DNA from: Isurus oxyrinchus
Lineage: Eukaryota
Assembly: GCA_026770705.1 (NCBI GenBank)
Contig: JANJGN010000026.1
Span: 30,504,001-30,568,000 of the forward strand
DNA: 64,000 bases
Direction of reading: 5' to 3'
Every line of letters begins with the position of its first letter. Position 1 is the first letter of the stretch. The notes below the pieces were generated by a model. It saw only the letters and a program-made list of their open reading frames with translations, had not been told where the DNA came from and searched no databases. The position numbers and the translations under genes are program-made. Shown here in pieces: positions 3,572-3,822 of this stretch.

Positions 3572-3822
3572 AATACCTGCAAAAACTCAGCAAGTCTGGC
3601 AGCATCTGCGGAGAGGAACACAGTTAATAAATAGAAAAGAGGTAAAAGGTATATGAGTTTTATATTTCTCCTCTTTTCCAATTTTACTCAGTTCTGTTGA
3701 AGAGTCATACGGACTCGAAACGTTAACTGTCTTCGTCTCCGCAGATGCTGCAAGACCTGCTGAGATTTCCAGGTATTATTTTTGTTTTGGATTTCCAGCA
3801 CCCGCAGTTTTTTGCTTTTATC
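3572..3822 (+). mobile_element. Fold-back non-autonomous element with hammerhead-like motif (probable Penelope-like pLTR remnant)
   Basis: Absent from monomers A and B. ~55-bp imperfect inverted arms 3572-3627 / 3723-3777, T-rich tail, flanked by degenerate direct repeat TGCAGCcAAtTCAG(3558-71) / TGCAGCaAAaTCAG(3823-36). Confidence 0.75.
3689..3729 (+). ncRNA. Minimal type I hammerhead-ribozyme-like motif (Penelope-like-element class, A6U core variant); one per unit
   Basis: Stem I CAGTT(3689-93)/AACTG(3725-29); core CTGTTGA(3694-3700)+A; stem II GAGTC-atacg-GACTC(3702-16); GAAA(3717-20); palindromic ACGT in place of stem III; GUU triplet. Identical copies start at 8673, 13660, 18648, 23636, 28729, 33717, 38810, 43798, 48891, 53876, 58864, 63957. 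Confidence 0.68.

What the first reader, a model, noticed from the sequence alone, without database searches (positions are those of the whole stretch)
3689..3729. A hammerhead-ribozyme-like motif in every unit of a tRNA gene macrosatellite
Seen: CAGTT CTGTTGA A GAGTC atacg GACTC GAAA CG T T AACTG has perfect stems I and II, the GAAA core box, a palindromic ACGT replacing stem III, and a GUU triplet (predicted cut after 3724). It is identical in all 13 units, on the same strand as the tRNAs, ~245 nt behind tRNA-Val(AAC). Known: this is the architecture of the minimal type I hammerheads of Penelope-like elements, which cleave as dimers through the palindromic stem III. Hammerhead-bearing tandem repeats (newt satellite 2, schistosome Sm-alpha, retrozymes) cut multimeric transcripts into monomers. 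Inference: a long transcript of this array could be cut into ~5-kb unit-length tRNA-containing RNAs, possibly circularised, with neighbouring units providing the dimer partner. Caveats: the core is CUGUUGA rather than CUGANGA, and identity across units is expected from recent amplification alone.
Basis: partly seen in the sequence, partly recalled or inferred. Interest (0 to 1): 0.75.

Follow-up and report, generated by a model that had tools for sequence, protein, structure and literature searches.

The report
Penelope transposon scrap in tRNA array
The hammerhead-like motif is really there, but it sits inside a 251-base scrap of a very common Penelope-like retrotransposon that landed in a tRNA-gene spacer and was likely just copied along with the array, and it is predicted not to cut RNA there; ordinary, apart from the odd core base, which the whole transposon lineage shares.

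Summary
The motif is at 3689-3729, identical in 13 of 13 units. It is the minimal hammerhead of a Penelope-like element (PLE) terminal repeat. It lies in a 251-bp insert (3572-3822) between 14-bp target-site duplications, in only one of three related tRNA-Val subunits. The insert has classic PLE anatomy: truncated repeat, inverted partner, tail. In longer copies elsewhere the repeat follows RT plus GIY-YIG frames. The genome holds 111,550 descriptor matches, one per 45 kb. Identity across units is expected (P about 0.66). Array-cutting is not supported: the insert's own hairpin is predicted to bury the cut site (hammerhead-compatible fold 2.5e-7), 32 oligo-T runs lie in each unit, and 10 of 23 outlying paralogues carry core or stem changes. 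A weak conservation signal (15 vs 26 expected) recurs in dispersed controls. Side result: U at core position 6 is not decay in the array. It is the dominant form genome-wide (102,039 vs 9,511) and is carried by intact 926-aa tandem elements.

The parts
69..5057 (+). One ~4.99-kb array unit made of three related subunits (A 69-1627, B 1628-3372, C 3373-5057; 69-79% identical), each headed by a tRNA-Val gene; 47 units over about 230 kb on this contig
3373..3445 (+). tRNA-Val(AAC) gene heading subunit C
3558..3571 (+). Left target-site duplication (14 bp; 2 mismatches to the right copy in the window, 0 mismatches in 11 of 20 aligned copies)
   Evidence: a single copy of this 14-mer is at the empty site of subunit A
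3572..3656 (-). Inverted, truncated PLE terminal-repeat copy. 3572-3627 mirrors the part downstream of the motif and 3629-3647 the part upstream; the antisense motif itself is missing between them (deletion inferred)
3660..3822 (+). 5'-truncated PLE pseudo-LTR fragment, 82-89% identical to repeats that follow PLE frames elsewhere in the genome
3658..3685 (+). Three T4 runs (3658, 3674, 3682), the first oligo-T signals behind tRNA-Val(AAC); potential Pol III stops just before the motif
3689..3729 (+). Minimal type I hammerhead motif with U at core position 6 (3697); predicted cut after 3724
3778..3822 (+). PLE 'tail', present only on the forward copy of the insert (the inverted arm mirrors only up to 3777)
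   Evidence: tail described in PMC8557442 and PMC11167929
3823..3836 (+). Right target-site duplication

Best explanation
The motif is the minimal hammerhead of a Penelope-like retrotransposon terminal repeat, lying in a 251-bp insert with target-site duplications in one tRNA-Val spacer, which was likely inserted once, likely copied passively as that tRNA unit duplicated, and is predicted not to cleave in this setting. Steps: (1, shown) the insert is a truncated terminal repeat plus an inverted truncated partner and a tail, between 14-bp duplications, absent from sister subunits A and B. (2, inferred from known PLE biology) the element's GIY-YIG nuclease nicked the spacer and its RT primed on the element RNA; synthesis stopped early and switched strand, which gave the head-to-head pair. 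(3, shown) the same junction occurs at 72 places on two contigs, 47 of them in this array, so one event was spread by segmental and tandem duplication; homogenisation by unequal exchange is inferred. (4, predicted) any transcript through the insert folds into a long hairpin that pairs U16.1, U17 and the 3' strand of stem I; U6 also lets the core pair with itself. (5, inferred) no unit-length RNA is made, and the tRNAs are ordinary Pol III genes.
For: Insert only in subunit C; a single 14-mer at the empty site in A; duplication perfect in 11 of 20 aligned copies. A DNA run also holds a form joining 3552 to 3839. Family size: 837 exact copies of the 34-mer with A6 and 1,970 with U6; 102,039 U6 and 9,511 A6 descriptor matches, controls 2 and 0; P about 0.11 that any 5-kb stretch holds one. 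29 of 30 loci picked by the GIY-YIG protein alone have the motif behind the frame (126,392 first-look candidates). Intact 926-aa frames flanked by the repeat match RVT_1 (E 7e-8 and 3.4e-6) and GIY-YIG (E 9e-4 and 2.3e-3, below Pfam cut-off). An inverted arm lies upstream in 17 of 105 dispersed motif loci, the arrangement described for PLEs (PMC8557442 passages). Fold: whole insert -113.7 kcal/mol, z -10.9; hairpin pair 3625-3725 P 0.997; hammerhead-compatible share 2.5e-7, against 0.013 for the isolated motif; already 7e-5 when the nascent RNA reaches 3735. 10 of 23 outlying paralogues have core changes or broken stems, including G12A, G8C+A9U and A15.1U; in 7 of the 23 a rearrangement breaks the unit just upstream of or within the motif's 5' edge. 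Literature: min-hammerheads show no monomer and low dimer activity (PMC4209133); the Anolis one needs the element's protein and no RNA-seq ends were found at its site (PMC11167929); A6C gives kobs below 0.1 per min (PMC3088659 passage).
Against: Among 27 paralogues the 28 critical motif sites took 15 parsimony changes against 26 expected from flanks (Poisson P 0.014, resampling P 0.022; non-CpG 6 in 24 sites), and 13 of 23 outlying copies keep core and checked stem pairs unchanged. Against reading this as selection: 10% of flank windows are as quiet, and dispersed copies show the same deficit (29 vs 49.4), though by a different count (rare variants, motif found at up to 6 mismatches). The main array has gained a C at 3689 that turns a wobble into a Watson-Crick pair in stem I. 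U6 is the form of intact, young elements, so it cannot by itself be read as a dead core. All activity arguments rest on folding predictions and on other hammerheads.
Confidence: 0.87

Rival explanations
1. One reading: the array has co-opted the ribozyme; a long transcript is cut once per unit through dimers of neighbouring units into ~5-kb, possibly circular, tRNA-bearing RNAs.
For: Motif on the tRNA strand in all 13 units; mild deficit of changes at critical sites among paralogues (15 vs 26); a one-base gain in stem I in the main array; precedent of hammerhead-bearing tandem repeats (PMC6155905, PMC7229834 passages).
Against: Cut site predicted buried in a hairpin; dimer form disfavoured, inter-molecule palindrome pair P below 1e-4; 32 oligo-T runs per unit argue against Pol III read-through and no Pol II promoter was identified; the insert is a late addition to 1 of 3 subunits; core losses in paralogues; same deficit in dispersed controls; partners 5 kb apart, whereas retrozyme units are 150-450 bp.
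Confidence: 0.03
2. The ribozyme is inert but the insert is kept for a by-product: its T4 runs give the first Pol III stop behind tRNA-Val(AAC), or its hairpin affects trailer processing or promotes rearrangement of the cluster.
For: First T4 behind the AAC gene is at 3658, inside the insert; several outlying paralogues have breakpoints at the insert.
Against: Subunit A lacks the insert and has its first T4 229 nt behind its tRNA, a similar distance; insert sequence outside the motif changes at about the flank rate (44 in 89 vs 204 in 338 non-CpG sites).
Confidence: 0.08
3. A chance sequence that only resembles a hammerhead.
For: No Rfam hammerhead match; isolated fold only z -2.4 and not in the hammerhead shape.
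Against: Identical but for one base to 837 copies with the canonical CUGAUGA core; fixed position in PLE terminal repeats.
Confidence: 0.01

Closest known systems
Minimal type I hammerheads in pseudo-LTRs of metazoan Penelope-like elements (Cervera and De la Pena 2014, PMC4209133; parts 1-2 of 4 read, 2 of 3 supplements searched)
   Same: Short stem I, extra base between positions 9 and 10.1, G10.1-C11.1 pair, palindromic 15.2-16.2, no helix III, location in the terminal repeat, mostly solitary truncated copies, opposite-strand pairs close together.
   Different: U instead of A at core position 6; far higher copy number than the 4,000-9,000 given there for coelacanth and Xenopus; this copy is locked in an inverted repeat inside a tRNA array.
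Neptune/Nematis-type EN+ PLEs (Craig et al. 2021, PMC8557442; passages)
   Same: Single frame with RT, a CX4CXXC linker finger, then GIY-YIG with CxxC and two His (seen in the 926-aa frames); partial tandems; inverted 5'-truncated partner; tail at one end.
   Different: Clade is assigned from the linker motif only; no tree was built. A 14-bp duplication in unique sequence here, not a microsatellite target.
Anolis Poseidon PAc hammerhead (Frangieh et al. 2024, PMC11167929; parts 1-2 of 4)
   Same: PLE hammerhead near the start of the next frame; tail from two RT start sites.
   Different: Its core is canonical and protein-assisted cleavage was shown; nothing has been assayed for the U6 form.
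Animal non-LTR retrozymes, newt satellite 2, Sm-alpha (PMC7229834 passages; bioRxiv 10.64898/2026.07.22.740005, part 1 of 5 and passages)
   Same: One hammerhead motif per tandem unit, all on one strand.
   Different: Their units are a few hundred bases and are the element itself, with canonical loop-loop hammerheads and shown circles; here the motif is a 41-nt passenger in a 5-kb tRNA unit and the array's sister subunits lack it.

Membership tests
Penelope-like element fragment | Sequence belongs to a repeat whose full copies encode RT followed by GIY-YIG in one frame | tested here: met
   (GIY-YIG scores lie below the Pfam cut-off; the ESM Atlas nearest clusters carry RVT_1/HTH_animal/GIY-YIG)
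Penelope-like element fragment | Pseudo-LTR flanking the frame in tandem copies | tested here: met
   L217 has three repeats about 3.35 kb apart with 865- and 926-aa frames between them; L221 two repeats with a 926-aa frame
Penelope-like element fragment | 5' truncation, inverted partner, tail at one end | tested here: met
Neptune clade of PLEs | CX2-5CxxC linker finger between RT and nuclease | tested here: met
   read directly in the translations; criterion from PMC8557442; shared with Nematis
Neptune clade of PLEs | RT phylogeny groups with Neptune | not tested
   no named reference proteins were in hand
PLE minimal hammerhead (motif) | Stems I and II, extra base after A9, G10.1-C11.1, GAAA, palindromic 15.2-16.2, NUH triplet | tested here: met
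   subfamilies vary stem II A-U to G-U and the triplet GUU to GUC
PLE minimal hammerhead (motif) | Core CUGANGA | tested here: not met
   U at position 6; lineage-wide
Active hammerhead ribozyme | Active fold accessible in its RNA context | tested here: not met
   predicted only: 2.5e-7 in the whole insert; dimer disfavoured
Active hammerhead ribozyme | Self-cleavage at the NUH site | not testable with these tools
   needs an in vitro assay or raw end-mapping reads
Non-LTR retrozyme / hammerhead satellite | Short tandem unit that is itself the element, canonical hammerhead | tested here: not met
   4.99-kb unit, motif in a 251-bp insert with duplications
Non-LTR retrozyme / hammerhead satellite | Unit-length linear and circular RNA | tested here: inconclusive
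   only assembled contigs of guessed-RNA runs were available
Rfam hammerhead families | Covariance-model match | tested here: not met

The most novel reading that the evidence does not exclude
The U6 core is a working, protein-assisted hammerhead variant, as its presence in more than 100,000 matches and in intact young elements allows, and this tRNA array uses its copy to cut read-through transcripts once per unit into long tRNA-bearing RNAs. (The weaker half alone, that a vertebrate PLE lineage proliferated with a U6 core that either still cuts with protein help or is no longer needed, is far more probable and is set out under Why it matters.)
Probability: 0.03. Interest if true: 0.75.

Novelty: new member of a known kind. 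Interest (0 to 1): 0.2.

Why it matters
For the array: little. It is a clear case of a transposon scrap hitch-hiking in an amplifying tRNA cluster, and it dates and links 72 tRNA-Val units to one ancestor. The side result has more value. In this genome the youngest and largest PLE subfamily carries U at core position 6 in 74,545 of 76,328 exact matches, has the highest copy-to-copy identity in my sample (median 0.97 vs 0.81-0.89 over 62 nt; n 18 vs 8-41) and includes intact tandem elements. What PLE hammerheads are for is stated to be unclear (PMC8557442 passage). A natural A6-to-U6 series in one lineage makes it testable: either U6 cores cut with the element's protein, or cleavage is dispensable for mobilisation in vivo, as found in vitro for Anolis (PMC11167929). 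I found no report of this in 7 paper searches, but the most relevant survey (Lunse et al., RNA Biol 14:1499) was not available and repeat databases could not be consulted.

Tried and rejected
Rfam scans: no hammerhead family. PDB sequence search with the 926-aa protein: 0 hits. Selection test on paralogues: weak signal, reproduced in a dispersed control, left as inconclusive; 5 of 32 aligned copies were dropped as near-duplicates (L029, L193, L197, L176, L178). Idea that U6 is decay private to the array: rejected. Idea that restoring A6 would rescue folding in the array: the predicted share stays at 4e-7 because the hairpin dominates. Chance motif: rejected. Earlier-findings look-ups returned nothing. 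Lunse et al. not held; known only from its citation in PMC6765202. Supplement file 1 of PMC4209133 could not be searched and may show related motifs.

Full report
Observation. The 41-nt motif is at 3689-3729, + strand, 13 copies, no mismatch, none in 100 shuffles. The window is a tandem array of 4,984-5,093 bp units; ARAGORN finds 43 tRNA-Val genes. Each unit is three related subunits, 69-79% identical, each starting with a tRNA-Val gene. Twelve complete units are 99.4-100% identical, with 50 variable columns and none in the motif; that is expected by chance with P about 0.66. Rfam has no hammerhead match.

Anatomy. The motif lies in a 251-bp segment (3572-3822) found only in subunit C. A 14-mer stands on both sides of it and once at the matching place of subunit A; the two copies are identical in 11 of 20 aligned units, and differ at 2 places in the window. 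One public DNA run holds a form that joins 3552 to 3839. The segment is a head-to-head pair: 3660-3822 is a forward piece of a repeat, 3572-3656 an inverted shorter piece lacking the motif. The forward piece runs about 45 nt beyond the point mirrored by the inverted one.

The family. The own genome (4.98 Gb) holds 837 exact copies of the 34-mer with the canonical CUGAUGA core and 1,970 with the window's CUGUUGA. A loose descriptor gives 102,039 matches with U6 and 9,511 with A6, controls 2 and 0; these are motif matches, not insertions, as inverted and tandem pairs count twice. That is one per 45 kb. Long dispersed copies carry RT and GIY-YIG coding pieces upstream. A search with the nuclease piece gave 126,392 first-look candidates; 29 of the 30 loci fetched have the motif just behind the frame, and 27 of 30 frame-linked motifs have U6 although the query came from an A6 copy. 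Of five stretches fetched around young copies, L217 and L221 hold open 926-aa frames between repeats 3.3 kb apart, matching RVT_1 and, weakly, GIY-YIG. The linker has a CX4CXXC finger, which points to Neptune or Nematis rather than Penelope/Poseidon (PMC8557442 passages); no tree was built. Truncation, inverted partner and one-sided tail are the described marks of PLE insertions; 17 of 105 dispersed motif loci have an inverted arm within 240 nt. My guess that the host is a cartilaginous fish is recalled likeness of this repeat; no call names the organism.

History of this insertion. The 3' junction occurs at 72 places at up to 1 mismatch: 47 in this array (about 230 kb), 22 elsewhere on the same contig and 3 on a second contig. 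I aligned 32 copies and kept 27 after dropping 5 near-duplicates; 23 lie outside the main array. Ten of the 23 have changed core bases or broken stems (G12A; G8C with A9U; A15.1U in two copies; others), and seven are cut by rearrangements at or just before the motif. Thirteen keep the motif. On a tree, the 28 critical sites took 15 changes against 26 expected (P 0.014-0.022). But 10% of flank windows are as quiet, CpG sites in the core change at the flank rate (9 in 4 sites vs 62 in 28), and dispersed copies with no link to the array show the same ratio (29 vs 49.4), so low local mutability or alignment noise in the flanks explains it as well as selection. The control used another counting rule, so I call the test inconclusive.

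Could it cut? Alone, the motif is predicted to close its core with a 4-bp helix that needs U6 (P 0.98), leaving 1.3% hammerhead-compatible folds. In the whole insert the inverted arm pairs with 3723-3768 and beyond (-113.7 kcal/mol, z -10.9), taking U16.1, U17 and stem I's 3' strand; the compatible share is 2.5e-7, and 4e-7 with A6. The arm is made first, so the share is 9e-4 when the motif is just complete and 7e-5 six bases later. The dimeric form scores -18.3 against -25.0 kcal/mol for two monomers. These are nearest-neighbour predictions without tertiary contacts or protein. Published min-hammerheads are inactive as monomers and weak as dimers (PMC4209133); the Anolis one cuts only with its protein and leaves no ends in RNA-seq (PMC11167929); an A6 change lowers the rate (A6C, PMC3088659; I found no figure for A6U). 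A 5-kb Pol III transcript would have to pass 32 runs of 4 or more T, three of them just before the motif.

Mechanism. Shown: a PLE terminal-repeat fragment with duplications in one tRNA-Val spacer, shared by 72 units. Inferred: one target-primed insertion with early strand switch, then passive spread and homogenisation with the tRNA unit. Predicted: no cleavage here. Confidence 0.87; co-option as an array-processing ribozyme 0.03; retention for terminators or hairpin 0.08.

Comparison and novelty. It works like, and is, a relic PLE minimal hammerhead motif; it fails the CUGANGA core test and the retrozyme tests. As a finding about the array it is ordinary. The notable by-product is that U6 is the rule in this lineage: 74,545 of 76,328 exact matches in the youngest subfamily (7 of the first 100 non-U6 matches listed have A6, most have C6), which has the highest copy identity in my sample and intact elements. 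That A6 is ancestral is inferred from the canonical core and the lower identity of A6 groups; the older U6 group is as diverged as the CUGAUGA group (0.887 vs 0.881), so the order is not settled. Seven paper searches showed no report of it, but Lunse et al. and one supplement of PMC4209133 were not readable. Papers seen: PMC6155905, PMC3088659, PMC6765202, PMC8557442, PMC7229834 as passages; PMC4209133 and PMC11167929 parts 1-2 of 4; bioRxiv 10.64898/2026.07.22.740005 part 1 of 5 and passages; others as search listings only.

Verdict: observation confirmed, interpretation partly supported, new member of a known kind, interest 0.2.

Noticed in passing
G000 genome-wide; L217:1210-7933, L221:1087-4445: The dominant and youngest PLE subfamily has a CUGUCGA core (U6): 74,545 exact matches vs 1,783 with another base at position 6; intact 926-aa elements in tandem carry it.
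   Followed up: partly
L217:4535-4620: In the youngest subfamily a short repeat of the motif's 3' half lies just upstream of the motif and offers a competing pairing in predicted folds.
   Followed up: no
window 26985-27058, 37066-37139, 47147-47220, 62213-62286: 4 of 12 complete units carry an extra 105 bp in subunit B that ARAGORN reads as a fourth tRNA-Val(CAC); these units share other letters and partly alternate with the shorter type, hinting at a two-unit higher-order repeat.
   Followed up: no
window 1628-1700 and 2016-2220: Subunit B's tRNA-Val is degenerate (38 vs 64-67 bits) and B has its own ~200-bp insert absent from A and C, which matched none of the dispersed loci held.
   Followed up: partly
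window 141-370, 3445-3658: The intact tRNA-Val genes have no adjacent oligo-T terminator; the first T4 is more than 200 nt downstream, implying long 3' trailers or non-standard termination.
   Followed up: no
L170-L186 (G000:C26 about 22.14-22.17 Mb and 22.51 Mb): A second array of ~1.98-kb units built from the same tRNA-Val spacer, with an inversion whose breakpoint lies in the PLE insert.
   Followed up: partly
L136, minus strand (128-aa open stretch): An immunoglobulin V-like exon, by eye, next to a PLE copy; not scanned.
   Followed up: no
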